In this document: in pieces, positions 227-9,102 of the stretch
Position numbering within the stretch: the stretch's first letter is position 1
How the letters are laid out: each line of letters begins with the position of its first letter
Assembly: GCA_022562795.1 (NCBI GenBank)
Contig: JADFOP010000007.1
Coordinates: 50,120 to 70,119 of the forward strand
DNA length: 20,000 bases
Direction: 5' to 3'
Source: Nitrospinota bacterium
GTDB lineage: Bacteria > JADFOP01
Program-made: the position numbers and the translations under genes
The notes under the pieces: generated by a model
Seen by the model: the letters and a program-made list of their open reading frames with translations, nothing else
The model's database searches: none
What the model was told of the DNA's origin: nothing

Positions 227-1669
227 TTGAAGCTACCCAATCATAAAACAAAGATCGTGTGCACGATCGGGCCGGCTTCCCGCTCAGAGTCTGTCCTGAA
301 GAAACTGGTCAAGAGTGGCATGAGTGTGGCCCGGCTCAATTTTTCTCACGGCACCCTTGAGGGTCACAGGGAAAATATCCGGCGCATACGCTCTGTAGCG
401 GCCCAGTTAGATCGAGTAGTTACGACTCTTATTGATCTCCCCGGTCCCAAAATCCGCGTTGGCAAACTGCAGAACGAACCGCTTGTGCTTAAGAGAGGTG
501 ACAACGTGACCCTCACCACTAAGGATGTTCTTGGTACGACCTCCCTTATATCTGTCAATTACGACAGGTTACCAGAGAGCGTGTCTAAGGGTAGCCTCAT
601 CTTTCTCAACGATGGTTTTGTGGAATTGAAAGTACAGGAGGTATTAAGCAATGAGGTGAGGTGTAAGGTTACGATTGGTGGGCAATTACTATCCTACAAA
701 GGCCTGAACCTTCCGAATGTAAAATTATTGATAGATGTAGTAACAGACAAAGATCTCGATTTTGTTGATTTTGGATTGAAGGAGGGGGTGGATGCCTTTA
801 GCGTTTCGTTTGTAGAAAAGGCAGAGGATATCGTCAAGGTCAAGGAATTTGCAAGAAAAAAGGGCAAACCTATTTACGTGGTGGCAAAGATTGAGCGGGA
901 AGAGGCAGTCAATAACTTCGATGAAATACTGAATGTGGCGGATGCGATTATGATCGCTCGTGGAGACCTTGGGGTGCAGATACCTCTAGAAGAGGTGCCT
1001 GCGGTCCAGAAAAAGCTCATCCACAAGTCAAATCTCTTGGGGCGTCCGGTCATCACCGCTACGCAAATGTTGGAATCCATGACAGAGAACGTACGCCCAA
1101 CTCGGGCTGAAGTAACAGATGTGGCAAACGCAATTTTGGATGGGACCGATGCCGTGATGCTGTCTGGAGAAACTGCGATTGGCCGATATCCTGTGGAGAC
1201 GGTAAGAATGATGGCCAGAATCGCGGTGTCTATTGAACGTCAGCGGCTAAGCATAAGTCCATCATCGAACGTCGAAGAGTCCTTTCTGAGTGGTGTGGGT
1301 CAGAAGACCGTGTCGATTGAGGATGTTGTATCCCTGAATGTGATCGAAGCCATGCGCGCATTAAATGCACGCTTTATTTTGACACCTACCGATACGGGCA
1401 ATACACCTCGTCGTATCTCCAGATTTAAGCCCGATTGTTGGATTCTAGCTTTTAGTAAATGTGAGAGAACACACAGATTTTTATCATTGTCTTATGGAGT
1501 TTACCCATTTTTGATAGAGAACAAGGCTGATAGTTGGCATGATCTGGTAATGAAATTAATGAAAGATGCCAGATTAGGAAAAAGAGGTGACAAGGTGATA
1601 TTAACTGAGGGCTTATCTTCTGGACAGGCTGGTGGTACCGATTCGCTTAGAATAATTACGTTGGTATGA
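227..1669 (+). CDS. pyk: Pyruvate kinase (TTG start, AT-richer than its neighbours)
   Basis: Motifs KTKIVCTIGPAS, ARLNFSHG, DLPGPKIR, AKIE, IMIARGDLG, ATQMLESM, PTRAEVTDVANAILDGTDAVMLSGETA. Confidence 0.97.
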   Translation: MKLPNHKTKIVCTIGPASRSESVLKKLVKSGMSVARLNFSHGTLEGHRENIRRIRSVAAQLDRVVTTLIDLPGPKIRVGKLQNEPLVLKRGDNVTLTTKDVLGTTSLISVNYDRLPESVSKGSLIFLNDGFVELKVQEVLSNEVRCKVTIGGQLLSYKGLNLPNVKLLIDVVTDKDLDFVDFGLKEGVDAFSVSFVEKAEDIVKVKEFARKKGKPIYVVAKIEREEAVNNFDEILNVADAIMIARGDLGVQIPLEEVPAVQKKLIHKSNLLGRPVITATQMLESMTENVRPTRAEVTDVANAILDGTDAVMLSGETAIGRYPVETVRMMARIAVSIERQRLSISPSSNVEESFLSGVGQKTVSIEDVVSLNVIEAMRALNARFILTPTDTGNTPRRISRFKPDCWILAFSKCERTHRFLSLSYGVYPFLIENKADSWHDLVMKLMKDARLGKRGDKVILTEGLSSGQAGGTDSLRIITLV

Positions 1670-1942
1670 CGACCGAGAACTATCGTTTCTTTTTCACTTT
1701 ACCGCATATCCGTAAAGGGTTCTGGTTCCCAGCTTCCCGGACATTTGATCCGAGTGAGGCCGCCTGGCACCACTGAGGAGGCGGTCGGCGGCCCAGCGTC
1801 TCTCCCTCCCCGCACCAGACCCCTCTGCCCGGCGTCCACAGGTCGTGTCGGGGTTCCGCCTTAGGCTGGAGCCGCCCTTGACTTCCCTGCCTGCCGCCGA
1901 TAGGATGGACGCCTATCTACAAGAAGACCATACCGTGAATTC

Positions 1943-2861: not shown

Positions 2862-3407
2862 ATGGAGCCTATTATTTACAAATCGGAGGTTCTCTCACCC
2901 GCGGGCGCGATACGCCTGGCATGCACCGACCGGGGGGCCTGCGCGCTGGTCCTGCCCGGGGTGGTGAATCCCAAGGAGAAGGTCGCCCGGTCGTTCGCGC
3001 TTGCTAGGCCGGGCCCGGCCGACCACCCGATCCTCCGGCCACTCATCGAGGCCTGCTCGCGCTACTTCGGCGGCGAGCCGGATGCTCTTGAGGGCCAGCC
3101 CGTGGACTTCTCTTTCGTAACGGACTTTCAAGCCCGCGTCTTAGAGGCGGCCCGGACCATCCCTCCGGGAATGGTCCGCTCCTACGGGTGGGTCGCCCGC
3201 AAGTTGGGAAACCCTAAGTCGGCCAGGGCCGTGGGCGGGGCGCTGGCGGCGAATCCGGTTCCGCTGATCGTGCCCTGCCACCGGGTGGTCGCGGCCAACG
3301 GCTCCCTTGGAGGTTTCACGGGAGGAATTGCGTGGAAACGCAGGCTCCTGGCGATTGAAGGAGAGATTTCCGGCCATTCTCTCAAAAAATCGCAAAAAAA
3401 CCCTTGA
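2862..3407 (+). CDS. ogt: Methylated-DNA--protein-cysteine S-methyltransferase
   Basis: FQARV..IPPG..SYG, ARAVGGA..NP..IVPCHRVV active-site motif, KRRLLAIE; RBS GAGGAG upstream. Confidence 0.93.
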   Translation: MEPIIYKSEVLSPAGAIRLACTDRGACALVLPGVVNPKEKVARSFALARPGPADHPILRPLIEACSRYFGGEPDALEGQPVDFSFVTDFQARVLEAARTIPPGMVRSYGWVARKLGNPKSARAVGGALAANPVPLIVPCHRVVAANGSLGGFTGGIAWKRRLLAIEGEISGHSLKKSQKNP

Positions 3408-3432
3408 CATTTTCCAAACATGGTTTTATATT
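3404..3432 (+). promoter_or_regulatory. Sigma70-type promoter TTGACA-N17-TATATT with upstream A-tracts
   Basis: Perfect -35 (3404-3409, overlapping the ogt stop codon), 17-nt spacer, 5/6 -10 (3427-3432), A-tracts at about 3384-3400 resembling an UP element. Confidence 0.85.
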
Positions 3433-3438
3433 GTTCTT

Positions 3439-3540
3439 GGGTCCGAAAGAGTCGAACGAACGCGCGACCTGCAAAGGGAGCGTGGCCCGGAGCAATCCGG
3501 GGCTCCTCGCAAGAGGGGTTCGGAAGGGTCTTTCGGGCCC
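3439..3540 (+). ncRNA. Candidate structured small RNA (four-way junction, three GCAA tetraloops), family not recognised
   Basis: Starts 7 nt after the -10 box; 12-bp terminal stem 3439-3450/3529-3540; three GCAA-capped hairpins; pyrimidine-rich tail; no credible ORF. Confidence 0.75.
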
Positions 3541-3625
3541 ACTACTTTTCCCCGATTTTCCGGGATTTTCCGAATATCCTCGCCCAACACGCCTAGAGCC
3601 ACCACGACCCATCTCACTTTGGCCC

Positions 3626-4624
3626 TTAGACCGCCTCCAGGCGGCGGGCTTCAACCTGCCGCTCCAGCCATCCGAGAACCTCTCGCTCCAGCCTTAGGCC
3701 CAACATAGCATTAAGCCTGGGAATACCCCCCGGCGAGACGACGTTTACCTCGATAAGCCAGGGGCCGATGACGTCGAGGCCAATGAAGGCAAGGCCCTCC
3801 GCCGCGAGCTCGCTGGCCAACGCTTCCCATCGTCCACGAGCAGAGGTGGAGAGCTCCACTGGGGCCACCTGAGCGCCCATGGCCACGTTTGCGCGAAACT
3901 CGCCCGCCGGGGGAATCCGCCGCATGGCTCCGAGCAGGCGCCCTTCAAGACAGAGAATGCGCACATCTCCCGGCATTGGCCCGTGGACCTCCTGCTGGAG
4001 GAGCACCCCCTGCCCGGATGTCAGGCTCTCGGCCAAGGCAGGCTCAGCGGCGATGAGGCTCTCCAGGCGTGAGCGCTCGTCGGCCGGCACTCTGATGATT
4101 CCCAGACCTCCCCTCCCCTCTAGCGGCTTGACGATCAACGAGCCTGGGATCGACGAGGCCGCCTTGCCAAGCCCCTTCGCCGAGCTTACTATCGCCGATG
4201 GAGGCATCAGATGACCAAACCGCTCGACCACGTTGGCCTTCGATGCCCATCGTAGCAGGGCTCTTGGACCGTTGAGGCATGGAATCGTCCCGGCCAGGCG
4301 GGCCAGTAGCTCCGCCGCACCTCGATGAACCGGAGGGTCTTTGCGCCAAATAAGGGCGTCGAGGGTCTTTATATCTAAGGGCACGGACGGACGGCTGACC
4401 ACCCGAGCCTGGAGGCGGCGCCAAAAAATCCCCAGATCGTCTGTGATGGGAAAGTCGATGTCATAGGCCAGGCCGACCAGGCCTCCTGCCTCCTCGCTGA
4501 TGCTCTCGGGAGGTAGACACCATAGGCGGTGGCCCCTGAGATGGGCAGCGTGGAGAAGACAAGCGCCCGTTCTTCTATCAGCGGGAAATAGGATGGGGGA
4601 GGACATAACAACTGCGAGACGCAT
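3626..4624 (-). CDS. Divergent glutathione synthetase-like ATP-grasp ligase (second paralog)
   Basis: WRKDPP, KPLEGRGG.G, GDVRIL, RIP..EFRANV, FIGLDVIG..LIEVNVVSPGG. Start trimmed from the ORF-track 4942 to ATG 4624 (MRLAVV, GGAG RBS). Confidence 0.85.
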   Translation of the reverse strand: MRLAVVMSSPILFPADRRTGACLLHAAHLRGHRLWCLPPESISEEAGGLVGLAYDIDFPITDDLGIFWRRLQARVVSRPSVPLDIKTLDALIWRKDPPVHRGAAELLARLAGTIPCLNGPRALLRWASKANVVERFGHLMPPSAIVSSAKGLGKAASSIPGSLIVKPLEGRGGLGIIRVPADERSRLESLIAAEPALAESLTSGQGVLLQQEVHGPMPGDVRILCLEGRLLGAMRRIPPAGEFRANVAMGAQVAPVELSTSARGRWEALASELAAEGLAFIGLDVIGPWLIEVNVVSPGGIPRLNAMLGLRLEREVLGWLERQVEARRLEAV

Positions 4625-4798
4625 GAAAGCTCCGGCGTGATGAGCTTGAAGGCTTGGCGCAGATTGTATCAGAGGCCCCTTCTCCGCAACAAGGCGGGGA
4701 TAGCCCAAGGAGGCGGGGAAATGGACACGACGGACCCCCTGCTTTATATTGGCGCTGTCGGCCCACCTCACGCATCTACGAATAGGAGGAAACCGGGT

Positions 4799-5125
4799 AT
4801 GGCCAGACGCTCTCTCATTGCCATCATGCTCCTTGGGTTCATCGGGGCCGTTGCCGTTCCCGCAGCACAAGCCTTTGAGTGTCCCACACGCCAGAAAGAG
4901 GCCCGAAAATTTCTGTATAAAGCCCGGGCCGCATCCCGGCAAGTCACAGACCCTGCAAAGCTGGGAACGATCGAAGAGCTTCTTGAACGGGCGGAGGAAA
5001 AACTTAACCAGTCAGAGACGACCCACTACGGGGCGAAAAGCACTGCCGACCACGCAACCAGCGTTCGGCTGGCTTATGAGGCCTTAGGCGATTCTAAGGA
5101 GGCGTACTACCTGGCCACGAAGTAG
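4799..5125 (+). CDS. Small secreted helical protein (108 aa) with AFECP after the signal peptide and two His residues
   Basis: AGGAGGA RBS before ATG 4799; MARR, hydrophobic stretch, AQA cleavage site; amphipathic helical mature part. Confidence 0.75.
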   Translation: MARRSLIAIMLLGFIGAVAVPAAQAFECPTRQKEARKFLYKARAASRQVTDPAKLGTIEELLERAEEKLNQSETTHYGAKSTADHATSVRLAYEALGDSKEAYYLATK

Positions 5126-5145: not shown

Positions 5146-8100
5146 TTAAGGAGCCTGGCGTCGAGCCGTCTCGGTGACTTCAAGAGCCTCTTGAGCCCGC
5201 CTGTTGTATGGGTCGAGGGCAAGGGAGCGCTGGTAGGCTTCGCGGGCGGCTTCTGAATCCCCAAGCGCTTTGAGGACATCGCCGATGGCGGCATGGAGCT
5301 TAGCCTTTCTCCCAGGAGTCTCAGCCAATCCGAGGGCCGCCTTGTACAGGGTCAGGGCCCGCCGCCACTGCATGTGTTCGACATATCGGTCCGCGACGGC
5401 GGCAAGCTGCGTGGGGCTCCGCCTGTTGATCTTGGCGTCCAGGGAAACTGAGACGTCATAGAGCTCTTCGGCCACGGGATCGGACGGCATCTCCAAAGCC
5501 AGGACAGCCTCCAGGGCCGGCAAAGCTAGAGGGCCGACTCTCTTCAGGCTCCGGGCCGCTTCGGCCCGGATTGACGGGTCGGCCTCCACAAGCCGCTCCA
5601 ACAGAACAGAAACCGCACGCTCCTCCCCAATCAGCCCGAGCACCCTAACGATCTCCCGCCGCGCGAAGGGGTCCGGGTCGGCCGCATGTGCTATGAGCGC
5701 TGCAATCGCTTTAGACGATGGGTATCGCTCTAAGGCAGCGGCCGAGCTGTAGCGAACCCCAGGGTCGGGGTCGTCGAGCGCTCGGATGAAGAGATCTTCC
5801 TGGGCTCTATCAGGCCTGGCAGCATACGCGCCCAGGGCCGCCGCCCTCACCTCCGCCACCTCGTCGACGACAAGCCGAGCGAGGACGCCATCGGTCGCAT
5901 CACCCCCAATCCTCCCAAGAGCTTCGGCTGTCACCCGTCGGACCTCAGCATCACCGTCGGTGGCACACATAGCCACAGAATTCCTCGCCGCGTGGTCCGC
6001 CAGGTCACCGAGACCCTGGACGGCCTCGGCTCGGATGAGGTGGTCAGGGTCTGTCAGGAGACCCTTCAACGTCGGGATGGCCCGTCGGTCGCGAAGACGT
6101 CGGAGCGTGGCGGCCGCCTCGCGTCGGACTGAGACATCCATCCCCTGGAGGGCCTCCGTCAATACCTCTACTGAGCGGGGGCCGCTCATCCGGCCAAGGG
6201 CTTGAACCGCGGCGCTCTGGACCACCGGAGCCCCATTGGCCAGCAACCTCTGTAGCGTTTGTTGGGCCTCGGAGCTTCGCGCCCGCCCAAGCGCGATCGC
6301 CAAACCCCGCTGTTCCAAGACAGACGAGCCGTTGAGGGCATTCCCAATGGCCGCCACTGCGTCCTTCGTCCCTACCTCCCCCAGGGCCTCGGCCGCCGCC
6401 TGCCTAACCCGGAGGGACTCATCCCCCAATGCCTCCCGCAAGGGGGCAACCGCGCTGGAGGCCTTCATGGCCCCTAAGGCATGAGCCGCTTCTGCCCTAA
6501 CTGCCACATCTGAATCCTTAAGGAGACGGCTCAGGGCGGCCTGGGATTCGGGTCGAGCCAGCTTGCCCAGGGCGCGGGCCGCGAACCTCCGGACCAGACG
6601 ATTCTCATCCGCGAGAGCCTTCTCAAGGGCGACTGTCGCTCCCCGACCGCCGACCTGCCCGAGCACGGTCACGACGCGAGTCCTTAGAGCCGGGGCCTCG
6701 CCGTCCATGAGGGCATCCAACGCGGGGACCACCCGGTCCCTTGGCGCCAGGGCCAGGGCTGCCGCCGCCCCGGCCTGGACCGAGGGGTCCTTATCTTTGA
6801 GGGCGGCCACCAATGGTCCAACCGCTTCAGCCCCGCCGCCACGTTGAAGCCCTACCACCGCCGCCCGCCGAACTCGAGCATCGCGGTCCCGGAGTCCTTC
6901 AAGAAGGGCTGAGTGGGCTGCAGAATTACGGACGTAGCCGAGAACCTTCAAGGCACGCTCCCGGTCAGATGTGAAGGAGGCCTCCCGGGCCTGAGCGACC
7001 AGCTCCTCGGTCAGCTCATCCACGGTGGCACCATCGACCCCCATCGCGCTCGGAAGAAGTCGCGCCGACAGCCGTAGGTAGCGGCGGGAGGCCTTTGGGA
7101 ACTCCTCGGACATGGCACGACGGAGACGGGCGAGAAGAAGATCGAAGATGATCGTCGCATCCTCAACCAGTCCCACTAGAAAGCTTGCGGCATACTGCAT
7201 GGCAGGGTCATCCAGGAAGGGCGCCAGCTCTGCCTCAGCCTTCCCCTCTCGCTCGGCGCCGGGGAGACGGCGGGCCACAGCCGTCGCATGAAAGTATTCG
7301 CGGAAGGACGGCAAGAGAAAGCGCACCTGGTAGCCTGAACTCCACGAAGTCGCGGACGAATCCGCCACAATGAGGTCGGTCTGCAACAAGACCTCCATGG
7401 CCTTAGAAGCTTTTGATATTACCGACACTGAGGGCTCTTTGAGCCGACCCTTCAGGGTCTGGGCGAGGGCCGCCTCAGCCTCAAAGCGTGGGAGGGTCTC
7501 ACGCCTCGGACCTATGGTTTCAGCCAGCTTGCCCAGTAGGTACTCCTTGGCCTGTGGGGACAGGGCCTCACCCTCCTCGTCCTCAGTACGAGAGGAACTC
7601 AATGCCTCGAGCGTGACGGCACGGTAGAACGATCCCAGACGATGCGGCACCGTCCGGTTACGCCGATATTGTTTGAGGAACATGGCCATGACGAGTGGGT
7701 TGCGAAGTGCCCGGGCAACCCGTGGAGTTCTTCGAAGATCGGCCACAACGGCGTCGGGGGCTTGAGGAATAGCATCCCGGACCACACCAGCCAGCTCAGC
7801 TTCCTGAAACTTGGCGACCCAGACTTCCGTGAGCGGACTCAGGGATGGCCGGAGAGAGCGGCGAGCGAATTCGATCCGGTAGCCGACCCACCAGCGGTTA
7901 TTTCTCCAGGATACATCGGATATCAGGGAGCGCACCGCCTCAGCGGTCCTAATCGGATCGCCGCTCGCTTCCAAGCGGGTCACGACCAGCAGGAAGCCGC
8001 CTTCGGCAGCCCGCTGACGGACAACCCTCCCGGGAATCTCAACCCCATGGGATTGAGAGGATGCACGGAGGGTGGCCACTATATGGTTGGCCAGATCGTC

Positions 8101-9102
8101 GGCATCCCCAACAAAATCGGCCAAGTCCACCACAACCGGAATTGTTCCGAAGCGGGGGTGGGGCCTCTTTCGTAGAGCCCTCCACGCCCAGACCTCAAGG
8201 ATCACCGTCTGGAGGGCGCCATCCGAGCTCAAGAGGGCGAGGCCCGGCTTGTGCGCCATAAGGTCGCGGGCCGGAGTAGGCTGGTCATTCCACCTCACCT
8301 CGTCCTGGTGCTCCTCCAAGGAGAGATCGAGCAGACTGATACCGGGCAGGTCGGTGAATAAAGCAATCCGTTCACCCAGGCGGGCCAACTCTCCTTCCTC
8401 GTAAGCGCCGAAGGAGACCTGTTCTTCCATGAGCCGGCCGAAGGCAGGCCTAAGCCAGAATGCTTCCAGGGGATTAAAGGCGTGGATGCGGCTTAGGAAG
8501 GACTCCTCCAGGACGGCGGCGGCCTGCTGGGCCGCCTCAAACTGACGGGCGTCCAGGGCATTTACCACCGCGCGGTAGCGCAGAGCGTTGGTCCCCCACC
8601 CTCCTACAAAGACGGCCGCTATAAGCACAAACACGTACTTGAGTTTGATGACGGGGAAGAGGGTGCCGAGCAGGCCTCGGACAGCGAGGGGAATGCCGCG
8701 GGGTAGCGACTCAGCCTTGAGCTCCGCAGCCCAGAGGTGGCGAAACCAATCGAGCAAGGATTTCCAGAAGCCCAAGATGTTCGAGCCGACCACAGCAAGC
8801 AAGCCCGTCGGCTGGCTCGGCTTAAAGACCTCCTCCCGAACCTCCTCCATACGTCGAGCGAAGGCCTCCTCGCCCTCCTCATGATAGAGGGCTTTGAGCT
8901 CTTCTAAGAAGGAGCCTAGAGCGTTTCGCTGGGCGGGGTCGTCAGCCAGGTCGCCCAGCCCCGTAGCGGCAACCTCCTCGGCCAGGAACTTCTCCCAATT
9001 GGAGTGCGCCCACTCCCCTTTGAAGGCGACGACGAAGCCGTAGGCGGCCAGGCATACCGAGGGCCTGAATTGCGGGTCTAAAAATGCGAGGGCCTCATCC
9101 AC
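5146..9102 (-). CDS. Large protein: N-terminal TM segment, degenerate NACHT/STAND-like module, long HEAT (PBS-lyase type) array, C-terminal TPR
   Basis: GTG start with GAGGGAG RBS; TM FVLIAAVFVGGWG; IPVVVDLADF, NPLVM, SFREYF motifs; many L.D.D..VR..AA.ALG repeats; terminal AY.RSLALDP TPR. Confidence 0.85.
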   Translation of the reverse strand: MDEALAFLDPQFRPSVCLAAYGFVVAFKGEWAHSNWEKFLAEEVAATGLGDLADDPAQRNALGSFLEELKALYHEEGEEAFARRMEEVREEVFKPSQPTGLLAVVGSNILGFWKSLLDWFRHLWAAELKAESLPRGIPLAVRGLLGTLFPVIKLKYVFVLIAAVFVGGWGTNALRYRAVVNALDARQFEAAQQAAAVLEESFLSRIHAFNPLEAFWLRPAFGRLMEEQVSFGAYEEGELARLGERIALFTDLPGISLLDLSLEEHQDEVRWNDQPTPARDLMAHKPGLALLSSDGALQTVILEVWAWRALRKRPHPRFGTIPVVVDLADFVGDADDLANHIVATLRASSQSHGVEIPGRVVRQRAAEGGFLLVVTRLEASGDPIRTAEAVRSLISDVSWRNNRWWVGYRIEFARRSLRPSLSPLTEVWVAKFQEAELAGVVRDAIPQAPDAVVADLRRTPRVARALRNPLVMAMFLKQYRRNRTVPHRLGSFYRAVTLEALSSSRTEDEEGEALSPQAKEYLLGKLAETIGPRRETLPRFEAEAALAQTLKGRLKEPSVSVISKASKAMEVLLQTDLIVADSSATSWSSGYQVRFLLPSFREYFHATAVARRLPGAEREGKAEAELAPFLDDPAMQYAASFLVGLVEDATIIFDLLLARLRRAMSEEFPKASRRYLRLSARLLPSAMGVDGATVDELTEELVAQAREASFTSDRERALKVLGYVRNSAAHSALLEGLRDRDARVRRAAVVGLQRGGGAEAVGPLVAALKDKDPSVQAGAAAALALAPRDRVVPALDALMDGEAPALRTRVVTVLGQVGGRGATVALEKALADENRLVRRFAARALGKLARPESQAALSRLLKDSDVAVRAEAAHALGAMKASSAVAPLREALGDESLRVRQAAAEALGEVGTKDAVAAIGNALNGSSVLEQRGLAIALGRARSSEAQQTLQRLLANGAPVVQSAAVQALGRMSGPRSVEVLTEALQGMDVSVRREAAATLRRLRDRRAIPTLKGLLTDPDHLIRAEAVQGLGDLADHAARNSVAMCATDGDAEVRRVTAEALGRIGGDATDGVLARLVVDEVAEVRAAALGAYAARPDRAQEDLFIRALDDPDPGVRYSSAAALERYPSSKAIAALIAHAADPDPFARREIVRVLGLIGEERAVSVLLERLVEADPSIRAEAARSLKRVGPLALPALEAVLALEMPSDPVAEELYDVSVSLDAKINRRSPTQLAAVADRYVEHMQWRRALTLYKAALGLAETPGRKAKLHAAIGDVLKALGDSEAAREAYQRSLALDPYNRRAQEALEVTETARRQAP

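What the first reader, a model, noticed from the sequence alone, without database searches (positions are those of the whole stretch)
3404..3580. Strong promoter driving an ORF-free ~102-nt four-way-junction RNA with three GCAA tetraloops (candidate undescribed ncRNA)
Seen: TTGACA-N17-TATATT with A-tracts upstream. The expected +1 (G3439) is the first base of a 12-bp stem, GGGUCCGAAAGA (3439-3450), pairing with UCUUUCGGGCCC (3529-3540). Inside are P2 UCGAAC 3452-3457/GUUCGG 3518-3523; P3 ACGC/GCGU enclosing CCU-GCAA-AGG with a GCGA/GA internal loop (tandem G.A, kink-turn-like); P4 CCCGGA-GCAA-UCCGGG 3486-3501; and P5 UCCUC-GCAA-GAGGG 3504-3517. A pyrimidine-rich tail with TTTTCC repeats follows. 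The next gene is convergent, so this is not an mRNA leader. Known: GNRA loops mark functional structured RNAs. The sequence lacks the hallmarks of tRNA (TTCRA arm, anticodon loop), SRP RNA (GGAA loop with the CAGG/AGCAG motif) and 6S RNA (too short). Inference: an independently transcribed, probably abundant small RNA, for example a tRNA mimic or protein sponge, of a class I cannot assign.
Basis: partly seen in the sequence, partly recalled or inferred. Interest (0 to 1): 0.88.

Follow-up and report, generated by a model that had tools for sequence, protein, structure and literature searches.

The report
New structured small RNA gene
An uncultured marine-sediment bacterium carries a promoter-driven gene for a very stable, roughly 100-base RNA that matches no described RNA family; its shape is kept in the only related species known, but its job is still unknown.

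Summary
A near-consensus sigma-70 promoter (3404-3432) puts the expected start at G3439, the first base of a 12-bp closing stem. The 102-nt RNA (3439-3540, + strand) folds into a four-way junction with three GCAA-capped hairpins (MFE -65.3 kcal/mol, z -6.7). No Rfam family matches.

A covariance model finds three copies: this one, the syntenic copy in the one congeneric genome, and a diverged second copy there. It finds none in 149 other genomes. All three copies keep the promoter, the start at the first G of the stem and the architecture, with 5 compensatory pair changes.

The "TTTTCC tail" is not specific to the RNA. It is a genome-wide decamer repeat inside a C-rich, G-poor stretch that looks like a Rho loading site.

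No expression data could be obtained. Function is inferred only: most likely a stable, protein-binding housekeeping-type RNA. tRNA, SRP RNA, Y RNA, 6S and tmRNA identities were tested and not met.

In passing: this genus lacks the whole signal recognition particle (ffs, ffh, ftsY), with clean gaps at the ancestral sites. A link to the RNA is unproven.

The parts
2862..3407 (+). Upstream gene ogt (methylated-DNA-protein-cysteine methyltransferase). Its stop codon TGA lies inside the -35 hexamer.
   Evidence: Pfam PF01035, 2.3e-33; ORF list. The same neighbour stands upstream of the copy in G001.
3384..3403 (+). A-tracts upstream of the -35 hexamer (UP-element-like).
   Evidence: Sequence. The run GCAAAAAACC is also present upstream of the G001 syntenic copy. 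The UP-element function is inferred.
3404..3432 (+). Sigma-70 promoter TTGACA-N17-TATATT.
   Evidence: 11 of 12 matches. TTGACA, 17-18 nt, TATATT, then 6-7 nt before GGG in all three copies. It is one of 100 sites with at least 11 of 12 matches in the genome. The 6S RNA gene of the same genome has TTGCAA-17-TATAAT.
3439..3540 (+). The RNA, 102 nt from the expected +1 to the end of closing stem P1.
   Evidence: RNAfold. Covariance models score it at 119.1 and 108.2 bits.
3439..3450 (+). P1, 5' strand. It pairs with 3529-3540. P1b (3452-3453 with 3526-3527) and P2 (3457-3459 with 3520-3522) continue the stack.
   Evidence: In the three copies, 100% of cells are paired in P1/P1b and in P2. Double (compensatory) changes occur at pairs 5/99 and 15/89.
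3461..3484 (+). Hairpin 1: 5 bp, a 2x2 purine loop (GA/GA), 3 bp, and a GCAA loop at 3471-3474.
   Evidence: 91.3% of cells are paired, with one double change (23/47). The loop is GAAA in G001a and UUU in G001b.
3486..3501 (+). Hairpin 2: 6 bp, GCAA loop at 3492-3495.
   Evidence: 94.4% of cells are paired, with one double change (50/63). The loop is GCGA in G001a and GGGG in G001b.
3502..3519 (+). Hairpin 3: 7 bp, GCAA loop at 3509-3512.
   Evidence: Only 68.4% of cells are paired in the fixed alignment, because the homologs are shifted by one base. Each homolog folds a hairpin here on its own, with loop GAAA or GUAA.
3529..3540 (+). P1, 3' strand.
3541..3620 (+). C-rich, G-poor tail (C 31, G 10 in 80 nt). 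It begins ACUACUUUUCCCC. Likely site of termination, by a weak intrinsic U-run and/or Rho loading.
   Evidence: All three copies have such tails: C:G of 31:10, 31:11 and 30:14. These lie in the top 0.16%, 0.24% and 1.6% of 80-nt windows of the genome. rho is present. The termination mode is inferred.
3554..3576 (+). Two copies of the decamer GATTTTCCGG/GATTTTCC followed by GAATA, a genome-wide repeat that is not specific to the RNA.
   Evidence: The 8-mer occurs 192 times against about 37 expected, in 27 arrays of 2-5 units. It is absent from the tails of both homologs.
3626..4942 (-). Convergent downstream gene, a GshB-like ATP-grasp protein.
   Evidence: Pfam PF02955, 3.6e-33. The ortholog (79% identity) is also convergent behind the G001 syntenic copy.

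Best explanation
This is a real, independently transcribed gene for a highly structured small RNA of about 102-110 nt. It founds an RNA family seen so far in only one genus of an uncultured marine-sediment lineage; one record of that genus is titled 'Nitrospinae bacterium'.

A near-consensus sigma-70 promoter starts transcription at the first G of a 12-bp closing stem. The RNA folds into a compact four-way junction whose three arms are mostly capped by GNRA tetraloops. Two purine-rich symmetric internal loops are kept. Transcription probably ends in the C-rich, G-poor tail, by Rho and/or the weak U-run after P1, and the 3' end is then trimmed back towards P1.

Most likely mode of action (inferred, not shown): it acts in trans as a stable, abundant RNA that binds a protein or forms the core of a small ribonucleoprotein, in the way 6S, 4.5S or Y RNAs do. 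The terminal stem would protect it from exonucleases. The GNRA loops and purine loops would serve as tertiary or protein contacts. The partner is unknown.

My odds: real structured RNA gene about 0.8. Given that, protein-binding or RNP role about 0.4.
For: Shown:
- Fold far beyond chance in all three copies: z -6.69, -4.65 and -6.39, with 0 of 200 shuffles as good in each case.
- The signal is strand-specific. The model scores 119.1 bits on the sense strand and 36.3 on the antisense.
- Promoter: 11 of 12 matches. All three copies keep TTGACA, 17-18 nt, TATATT, 6-7 nt, GGG, although the third copy has a different upstream neighbour.
- Of the 100 near-consensus promoter-like sites in the genome, this one drives the most stable and most non-random 105-nt fold, ranking 1 of 100.
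- Pair counts on the three copies: 91.9% of 111 cells paired and 5 pairs with changes on both sides. Shuffles give a mean of 2.3 such pairs, and 13 of 500 reach 5. Slid controls give 22.5-60.2% paired.
- 7 of 9 hairpin loops are GNRA. In G001a all three loops changed sequence and stayed GNRA: GAAA, GCGA, GAAA.
- No Rfam match at the gathering thresholds in the window. At E up to 10, only two noise hits.
- No tRNA in the window.
- In a strain variant seen in a DNA run, 5 differences are listed between 3204 and 3323 and none in 3404-3576. This is weak evidence.

Inferred: the protein-binding role, from the likeness in gene layout to 6S RNA (same promoter class) and from the loop types.
Against: - There are only three sequences from two genomes, and they are related. 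The shuffle figures are therefore not probabilities.
- No transcript was seen.
- The third copy has non-GNRA loops in two arms. It sits on a 2,970-nt contig of 49% G+C and a coverage label of 3032, against 65% G+C and 17 for the syntenic contig. It may belong to a mobile element or another cell.
- The family is absent from the one other genome of the class and from 149 of 151 genomes searched. It is therefore not a universal housekeeping RNA.
- No candidate partner gene is linked to it. The neighbours are ogt, a GshB-like ligase and a HEAT-repeat protein, and they differ at the third copy.
Confidence: 0.6

Rival explanations
1. It is a base-pairing regulatory sRNA. The structured body is a stabilising scaffold, and the single-stranded pyrimidine tail (..CUnnUUCCCC) is the seed that pairs with G-rich ribosome-binding regions of target mRNAs.
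For: A UUCCCC run lies 9-14 nt after P1 in all three copies, although the rest of the tails differ. C-rich seeds that pair with Shine-Dalgarno regions are known from staphylococcal sRNAs (recalled).
Against: If transcription ends at the U-run directly after P1, the C-run is not in the RNA. The tail composition equally fits a Rho loading site. No target prediction was made. The conserved, compensated four-way junction is more elaborate than a scaffold needs.
Confidence: 0.13
2. It is the RNA of a mobile or selfish element (island, satellite, defence or counter-defence module). The chromosomal copy next to ogt is a domesticated or resident copy.
For: The second copy in G001 lies on a short, low-G+C contig (49% against 65%). 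It stands beside an Xre-type HTH gene and ORFs without a Pfam family. It is bracketed by two copies of a 65-nt dispersed repeat. The family is confined to one genus.
Against: The same 65-nt repeat is scattered over at least 10 contigs of G000, so it is not specific to the RNA. The ogt-linked copy is syntenic in both species, without repeats or mobility genes. There is no match in the phage, plasmid or viral-contig collections. No reverse transcriptase, integrase, Cas or toxin gene is adjacent.
Confidence: 0.1
3. It is not a functional RNA product. It would be a large bidirectional terminator or insulator between the convergent ogt and gshB-like genes, with a promoter-like sequence that is fortuitous.
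For: It lies between convergent genes. The scan flags 3516-3540 plus the T-run as terminator-like. The minus strand also folds better than shuffles (z -3.78).
Against: The promoter and its spacing to the first G are kept in three copies, one of them in an unrelated context. The sense strand scores far better than the antisense. GNRA loops and G.U pairs make sense on one strand only. A simple hairpin would be enough for termination.
Confidence: 0.07
4. It is a ligand-sensing or catalytic RNA: an orphan riboswitch-like four-way junction or a ribozyme.
For: Four-way junctions with docking arms occur in the yybP-ykoY and NiCo riboswitches and in the hairpin ribozyme (recalled). Conserved purine internal loops lie in two adjacent arms.
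Against: There is no downstream gene to regulate. No Rfam riboswitch or ribozyme model matches even at E up to 10. The AGUC at 3450-3453, which resembles a hairpin-ribozyme cleavage site, is AGCC and AGCU in the homologs.
Confidence: 0.04
5. It is the RNA subunit of a replacement for, or a consequence of the loss of, the signal recognition particle in this genus.
For: Both genomes that have the RNA lack ffs, ffh and ftsY. The one class relative that has all three lacks the RNA. Like 4.5S RNA, it is about 100 nt, begins with GGG, ends in a long terminal stem and carries GNRA loops.
Against: This is a single evolutionary event, so the anti-correlation has no statistical weight. No SRP54-type GTPase is left to bind it. 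The helix-8 motif is absent, and the SRP models do not match it. 20 of 149 other genomes also gave no Ffh M-domain hit, yet none of them has the RNA. The RNA lies about 18 kb from the vacated ffs site.
Confidence: 0.04

Closest known systems
6S RNA (Rfam RF00013)
   Same: A stand-alone gene behind a near-consensus sigma-70 promoter. It is a stable, highly paired RNA with its 5' and 3' ends in one long stem, and it acts by binding a protein (recalled). The 6S promoter in this same genome is of the same class.
   Different: 6S is about 180 nt and forms a single rod with a central bubble. This genome has a bona fide 6S RNA elsewhere (107.1 bits). The candidate is a 102-nt four-way junction and does not match RF00013.
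Bacterial small SRP (4.5S) RNA, RF00169
   Same: About 100 nt, a G-rich 5' end paired to the 3' end, and a GNRA tetraloop on a short distal stem next to a symmetric purine-rich loop. It is the one housekeeping RNA missing from this genome.
   Different: 4.5S is one long hairpin with the conserved GGAA loop and the AGG/AGCA symmetric loop. This was seen in all 30 relatives' SRP RNAs that I extracted. The candidate is branched, lacks that motif and does not match the model. The candidate's model does not hit the four SRP RNA loci tested. Ffh is absent.
Y RNA / YrlA with Ro (Rsr)
   Same: About 100 nt, a terminal stem formed by both ends, a branched tRNA-like module and a pyrimidine-rich 3' tail. 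The 5' GGUCCGAA of this copy resembles the Ro-binding strand of vertebrate Y RNAs (recalled).
   Different: No TROVE/Ro gene in G000, G001 or G002 (0 of 3). No Rfam Y RNA or YrlA match. The stem has no bulged C, and the GGUCCGA word is not kept in the homologs, which read GGUUCGA and GGUUCGG.
tRNA and tRNA-like RNAs
   Same: Cloverleaf topology: a closing stem plus three hairpins around a four-way junction.
   Different: The closing stem has 12 bp, not 7. The loops are tetraloops. There are no D or T loop sequences, no anticodon loop and no CCA end. ARAGORN and Rfam find no tRNA here.
Orphan structured RNA motifs from comparative genomics (for example the sets in PMC2864571 and PMC6429828; I saw only their search listing and the start of their abstracts)
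   Same: A conserved, covarying intergenic structure of unknown function in uncultured bacteria.
   Different: These motifs are mostly in Rfam (recalled), and none matches. This one has a clearly conserved promoter of its own and a very narrow distribution.

Membership tests
Any Rfam 15 family | Score at or above the family's gathering threshold | tested here: not met
   0 matches in the 20-kb window. At E up to 10 on 3380-3640, the only hits were mir-657 (13.5 bits against a threshold of 69) and sR38 (10.9 against 50), on mismatched logic.
SRP RNA (RF00169 / RF01854) | Helix 8: GNRA (GGAA) loop, symmetric loop AGG/AGCA, single long hairpin | tested here: not met
   No model match. The motif is present in all 30 SRP RNAs extracted from relatives and absent here. 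The fold is branched.
SRP RNA (RF00169 / RF01854) | The partner protein Ffh (M domain) is present | tested here: not met
   PF02978 gives 0 hits in G000 and G001. tblastn with the relative's Ffh has a best E of 0.25. The ffh slot between gene A and rpsP is empty.
Y RNA / YrlA | A Ro/Rsr (TROVE) protein is encoded, usually nearby | tested here: not met
   PF05731 gives 0 of 3 genomes. The neighbours are ogt and a gshB-like gene.
Y RNA / YrlA | Conserved Ro-binding stem with a bulge | tested here: not met
   P1 is fully paired, and its sequence varies at the critical positions. The definition of the motif is recalled.
tRNA | 7-bp acceptor stem, D and T loops, 7-nt anticodon loop | tested here: not met
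   ARAGORN finds 0 genes in the window. Rfam tRNA does not match. The fold has tetraloops only.
6S RNA | A rod of about 180 nt with a central bubble; match to RF00013 | tested here: not met
   The genome's 6S RNA is at C43:6771-6952 (107.1 bits). The candidate does not match.
tmRNA / RNase P RNA | Model match | tested here: not met
   tmRNA was found elsewhere in the genome by ARAGORN. RNase P RNA is at C50 (308.9 bits).
Riboswitch or cis-leader | A gene lies downstream on the same strand | tested here: not met
   The next gene is convergent. The same holds in G001a.
Retron ncRNA | A reverse transcriptase gene lies directly downstream | tested here: not met
   No RT among the neighbours.
New family defined here (models R1 and R2) | Own sigma-70 promoter with +1 at the first G of P1; 12-bp P1; four-way junction with three hairpins; C-rich tail | tested here: met
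   3 of 3 copies meet it. The matches score 95-119 bits. These are the sequences the models were built from, so they match by construction.
New family defined here (models R1 and R2) | The RNA is transcribed | not testable with these tools
   Only assembled contigs of three metatranscriptome runs were available.

The most novel reading that the evidence does not exclude
The RNA is the core of a previously unknown housekeeping ribonucleoprotein that arose in a lineage which has discarded the entire signal recognition particle. It could be a new ribosome- or membrane-associated factor that took over part of the vacant job. Alternatively it could be a self-assembling RNA particle held together by GNRA-receptor contacts.
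Probability: 0.05. Interest if true: 0.9.

Novelty: new variant of a known kind. Interest (0 to 1): 0.55.

Why it matters
Stable, promoter-driven structured RNAs of about 100 nt are few in bacteria (6S, 4.5S, Y, tmRNA, RNase P RNA), and each has revealed a basic cellular mechanism.

This one comes from a phylum represented by only three species genomes in the collection searched. It has a clean gene structure and conserved architecture, and it matches no described family. That makes it a well-defined target for structure probing and partner hunting.

Its value is limited for now by its narrow distribution (one genus), by the lack of expression data and by the lack of any functional clue.

The side observation may interest more people than the RNA itself: the same genus, and apparently a good number of other uncultured bacteria, lack the supposedly universal SRP pathway.

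Tried and rejected
- **Expression.** One search for sequencing runs and one laying of three metatranscriptome runs plus one DNA run. The RNA-library contigs lay only on parts of ogt and the gshB-like gene. None lay over 3404-3576. These are contigs, so this says nothing either way.
- **More homologs.** An exact-pattern scan for both P1 strands was run over the metagenome contigs and the GTDB species genomes. Besides the known copies it returned L084, L085 and L087. These score 19-35 bits. L084 and L085 score equally on both strands, have different interiors, and L084 has no such promoter. They are look-alikes selected by the pattern itself.
- **Viral, phage and plasmid collections.** Two pattern scans of viral contigs gave 0. 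blastn against the phage and plasmid collections gave no match.
- **Divergent SRP RNA.** Rejected; see the membership rows.
- **Y RNA.** Rejected; no Ro gene.
- **Hairpin-ribozyme-like AGUC site.** Not conserved.
- **Alternative local terminator hairpin 3516-3540**. By eye on the sequences, its pairing is weakened in G001a and largely lost in G001b.
- **My first motif regexes for SRP helix 8**. They were too loose to be useful and were replaced by an exhaustive nhmmer search.
- **Synteny with the class relative G002.** The gshB-like gene has no ortholog there, only 29-32% paralogs. The gain of the RNA could therefore not be placed.
- **Literature.** Four full-text searches gave no paper on this RNA, on non-coding RNAs of this lineage, or on free-living bacteria without SRP. 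Only listings and the starts of abstracts were seen. No paper was opened, and supplements were not consulted.
Full report
**1. What is in the sequence**

The stretch 3380-3600 was read directly.

- The promoter is TTGACA (3404-3409), 17 nt, TATATT (3427-3432). It matches 11 of 12 consensus positions.
- The scanner found 2 promoter-like sites in 3000-4200, against a mean of 0.1 in 50 shuffles.
- Two A-tracts precede the -35 hexamer.
- The -35 hexamer overlaps the stop codon of ogt (2862-3407; PF01035).
- Seven bases after the -10 hexamer lies G3439.
- From there, GGGUCCGAAAGA pairs with UCUUUCGGGCCC at 3529-3540.

RNAfold of 3439-3545 gives -65.3 kcal/mol, and the minimum-free-energy structure holds 45% of the ensemble. 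None of 200 dinucleotide shuffles folds as well (z -6.69). The structure is:

- P1 (12 bp), a 2-bp and a 3-bp continuation (P1b, P2), and a four-way junction.
- Three hairpins, each closed by GCAA.
- Hairpin 1 carries a symmetric GA/GA internal loop.

The complementary strand folds markedly worse (-48.7, z -3.78). The next gene (3626-4942) is convergent and encodes a GshB-like ATP-grasp protein. Behind it lies a 1318-aa HEAT/TPR repeat protein.

**2. Is it a known RNA?**

- cmscan of the whole window against Rfam 15 at the gathering thresholds gave nothing.
- A permissive scan of 3380-3640 at E up to 10 gave only two meaningless hits.
- ARAGORN finds no tRNA or tmRNA in the window.
- The genome has its own 6S RNA (107.1 bits), RNase P RNA (308.9 bits) and tmRNA elsewhere.
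- No Ro/TROVE gene exists in G000, G001 or G002 (0 of 3). This removes the Y RNA reading, which the 5' word GGUCCGAA had suggested to me from memory.

**3. Relatives**

The genome (G000; 2.15 Mb, 84 contigs, 97.1% complete) belongs to a phylum with only three species genomes in the collection.

- blastn found one homolog at 77% identity in the congeneric genome G001. Promoter and RNA align. It lies in the same place, after ogt and before the convergent gshB-like gene.
- A covariance model of the pair (R1) found a third, more diverged copy on another G001 contig (64.2 bits). It found nothing in the class relative G002.
- A three-sequence model (R2) matched in 2 of 151 genomes, G000 and G001. 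It matched none of the 149 others, each from a different family.
- Exact-pattern scans of metagenome contigs and of the GTDB species genomes added only look-alikes of the P1 stem. These score 19-35 bits, two of the three equally on both strands, and none shares the interior.
- Viral contigs, phages and plasmids gave nothing.
- A record title calls G001 a 'Nitrospinae bacterium'.
- DNA nearly identical to the window, holding at least half of the sampled words, is held by 17 runs labelled sediment, marine sediment or marine metagenome, one of them simply 'metagenome'.

**4. What the three copies share**

- Each folds on its own into the same architecture, with z -6.69, -4.65 and -6.39.
- Each has TTGACA, 17-18 nt, TATATT, 6-7 nt, and then the GGG that opens P1. 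The third copy has quite different neighbours. The constant placement of the expected start at the first base of the closing stem is the strongest argument for an independent primary transcript.
- On the three-way alignment, 91.9% of 111 cells are standard pairs. Five pairs change on both sides: 5/99, 15/89, 23/47, 50/63 and 66/81. Shuffles give a mean of 2.3 such pairs, and 13 of 500 reach 5. Sliding the partners drops pairing to 22.5-60.2%.
- Seven of the nine hairpin loops are GNRA. In G001a all three loops differ from G000 and remain GNRA. In G001b two are not: UUU and GGGG.
- With three related sequences this is suggestive, not proof.

**5. The tail**

The TTTTCC repeats belong to a decamer, (GC/GG)GATTTTCC, that occurs in 27 arrays across the genome. 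Its 8-mer core occurs 192 times against about 37 expected. The repeats are missing behind both homologs.

What the three tails do share is composition and a short motif.

- C:G is 31:10, 31:11 and 30:14 in the 80 nt after P1. These lie in the top 0.16%, 0.24% and 1.6% of genome windows.
- All three begin A(C/U)U..CU..UUCCCC.
- rho is present.

I infer Rho-dependent termination, and/or a weak intrinsic terminator formed by P1 and the U-run, followed by trimming back to P1. This is not shown.

**6. Promoter context**

Near-consensus promoters are widely used in this organism. There are 100 sites with at least 11 of 12 matches, against roughly 5 expected by my own rough composition estimate. The 6S RNA gene has TTGCAA-17-TATAAT, and rpsP has TTGACA-16-TAAAAT. 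Among the 100 sites, the 105 nt downstream of this one has the lowest energy and the lowest z (rank 1 of 100).

**7. Expression**

Three metatranscriptome runs held about 5% of the sampled words. When laid, their contigs lay on ogt and gshB-like fragments only. Because these are contigs, this is uninformative.

A DNA-run contig spanning 3000-3576 carries 6 differences. Five of them are listed, at 3204-3323, and none is listed in 3404-3576. This is a weak hint of constraint.

**8. A lead that I followed: the missing SRP**

The small and large SRP RNA models find nothing in G000 or in G001 (small model only). G002 has a standard SRP RNA (78.7 bits) between a cluster of five tRNAs and dnaX.

- In G000 the same five-tRNA cluster abuts dnaX, with only a terminator-like hairpin between them.
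- An exhaustive nhmmer search with a profile of 30 relatives' SRP RNAs has a best E of 2.4.
- The Ffh M domain is absent from G000 and G001 and present in G002 and G003.
- tblastn with G002's Ffh finds nothing better than E 0.25 in G000. It therefore finds no FtsY either.
- The only SRP54-type domain hit is a 33-bit, P-loop-less, frame-shifted flhF remnant. It lies between a sigma-54 activator and a FliA-like sigma factor.
- The order 'gene A - ffh - rpsP - KH - rimM - trmD' of G002 is 'gene A - about 140 nt with a promoter - rpsP ...' in G000.

The genus therefore lacks the SRP pathway in its assembled DNA, and the vacant sites look natural.

Does the new RNA replace it? I found no support beyond the co-occurrence.

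- The RNA lacks the helix-8 motif and no Ffh-like protein remains.
- The state is not unique. 22 of 151 sampled genomes gave no M-domain hit.
- Four of five of these that I re-tested had no SRP54 domain at 1e-10.
- For one complete 785,860-nt genome (G071), my own tblastn (genetic codes 11 and 4) and nhmmer confirmed the absence.
- None of those genomes has the RNA.

I keep the link as the most novel reading, at about 5%.

**9. Mechanism**

Shown:

- gene layout;
- fold;
- strand;
- conservation with compensatory changes;
- absence from known families.

Inferred:

- It is a trans-acting, stable RNA.
- The long G-C-clamped terminal stem protects both ends.
- The perfectly stacked junction (0-1 nt linkers), the GNRA loops and the two conserved purine-rich symmetric loops give a compact tertiary fold and surfaces for a protein.

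This is the logic of 6S, 4.5S and Y RNAs. I rate it the most likely mode (about 0.4, given that the RNA is real). It stands ahead of a base-pairing sRNA that uses the C-rich tail, an RNA of a mobile element (suggested by the context of the third copy), a mere terminator, and a sensor or ribozyme.

**10. Verdict**

This is a genuine and well-defined candidate for a new structured small RNA family. It is confined, as far as could be searched, to one genus of an almost unsampled phylum. It is neither an artefact nor a known RNA. Interest 0.55.

Noticed in passing
Whole genome G000; L042 2800-2910 (tRNA cluster to dnaX spacer); L090 about 800-950 (gene A to rpsP spacer): The genus (G000 and G001) lacks the signal recognition particle: no SRP RNA, no Ffh and no FtsY. 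In G000 the ancestral ffs and ffh sites are empty, whereas the class relative G002 has all three.
   Followed up: yes
Genomes G010, G016, G026, G071 and 16 others among 149 sampled families: 22 of 151 genomes, G000 and G001 included, gave no Ffh M-domain hit. Four of the five re-tested also lack any SRP54-type GTPase at 1e-10. The complete 785,860-nt genome G071 has no Ffh or FtsY by exhaustive tblastn and no SRP RNA by nhmmer. SRP-less bacteria seem far commoner in this collection than the textbook view allows.
   Followed up: partly
Window 3554-3576 and 26 other arrays in G000 (for example C12:3409, C54:12656, C60:3765): A dispersed tandem decamer, (GC/GG)GATTTTCC in 2-5 copies, usually ending in GAATA. 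Its 8-mer core occurs 192 times against about 37 expected. Several arrays follow the same roughly 40-nt sequence (..CCCATTGACCGTTCAAGCT..). Its function is unknown; it could be a protein-binding array or the end of a repeat element.
   Followed up: partly
L086 1377-1441, 1761-1825 and 2901-2929; at least 10 contigs of G000: A dispersed repeat of about 65 nt, with the core TTATCCCAGGAAAT, brackets the second RNA copy in G001. It recurs on many G000 contigs, and some of the G000 matches lie within about 100 nt of a contig start.
   Followed up: partly
G000:C75:8293-8738 (L075 about 1385-1830, minus strand): A remnant of flhF (SRP54-type GTPase domain, 33 bits) without a P-loop and split by a frame shift. 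It lies between a sigma-54 activator and a FliA-like sigma factor, which suggests decay of a flagellar regulon.
   Followed up: partly
G000:C24:9186, C25:6868 and C46:14034 (+ strand): Three near-consensus promoters each drive almost the same sequence of about 45 nt (GTCTCAAGTTGCCACCCAAACCG...). This is another promoter-linked repeated element or small RNA family.
   Followed up: no
G000:C22 (minus strand) position 16; C64:19398 (+ strand): After the candidate, these are the next most non-random folds downstream of near-consensus promoters (z -5.8 and -4.95). They may be further unannotated RNAs or leaders.
   Followed up: no
Window 5146-9102 (minus strand): A 1318-aa protein made almost wholly of HEAT/PBS-lyase-like repeats, with a C-terminal TPR. 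Its function is unknown.
   Followed up: no
L084 3434-3535 (JQIA01014581.1): A metagenome contig carries a 25-bp perfect stem that begins with the same 14 bases as the G001a P1. The stem encloses two small hairpins (-65.2 kcal/mol, z -9.2) and has no matching promoter. It is probably an unrelated inverted repeat.
   Followed up: partly
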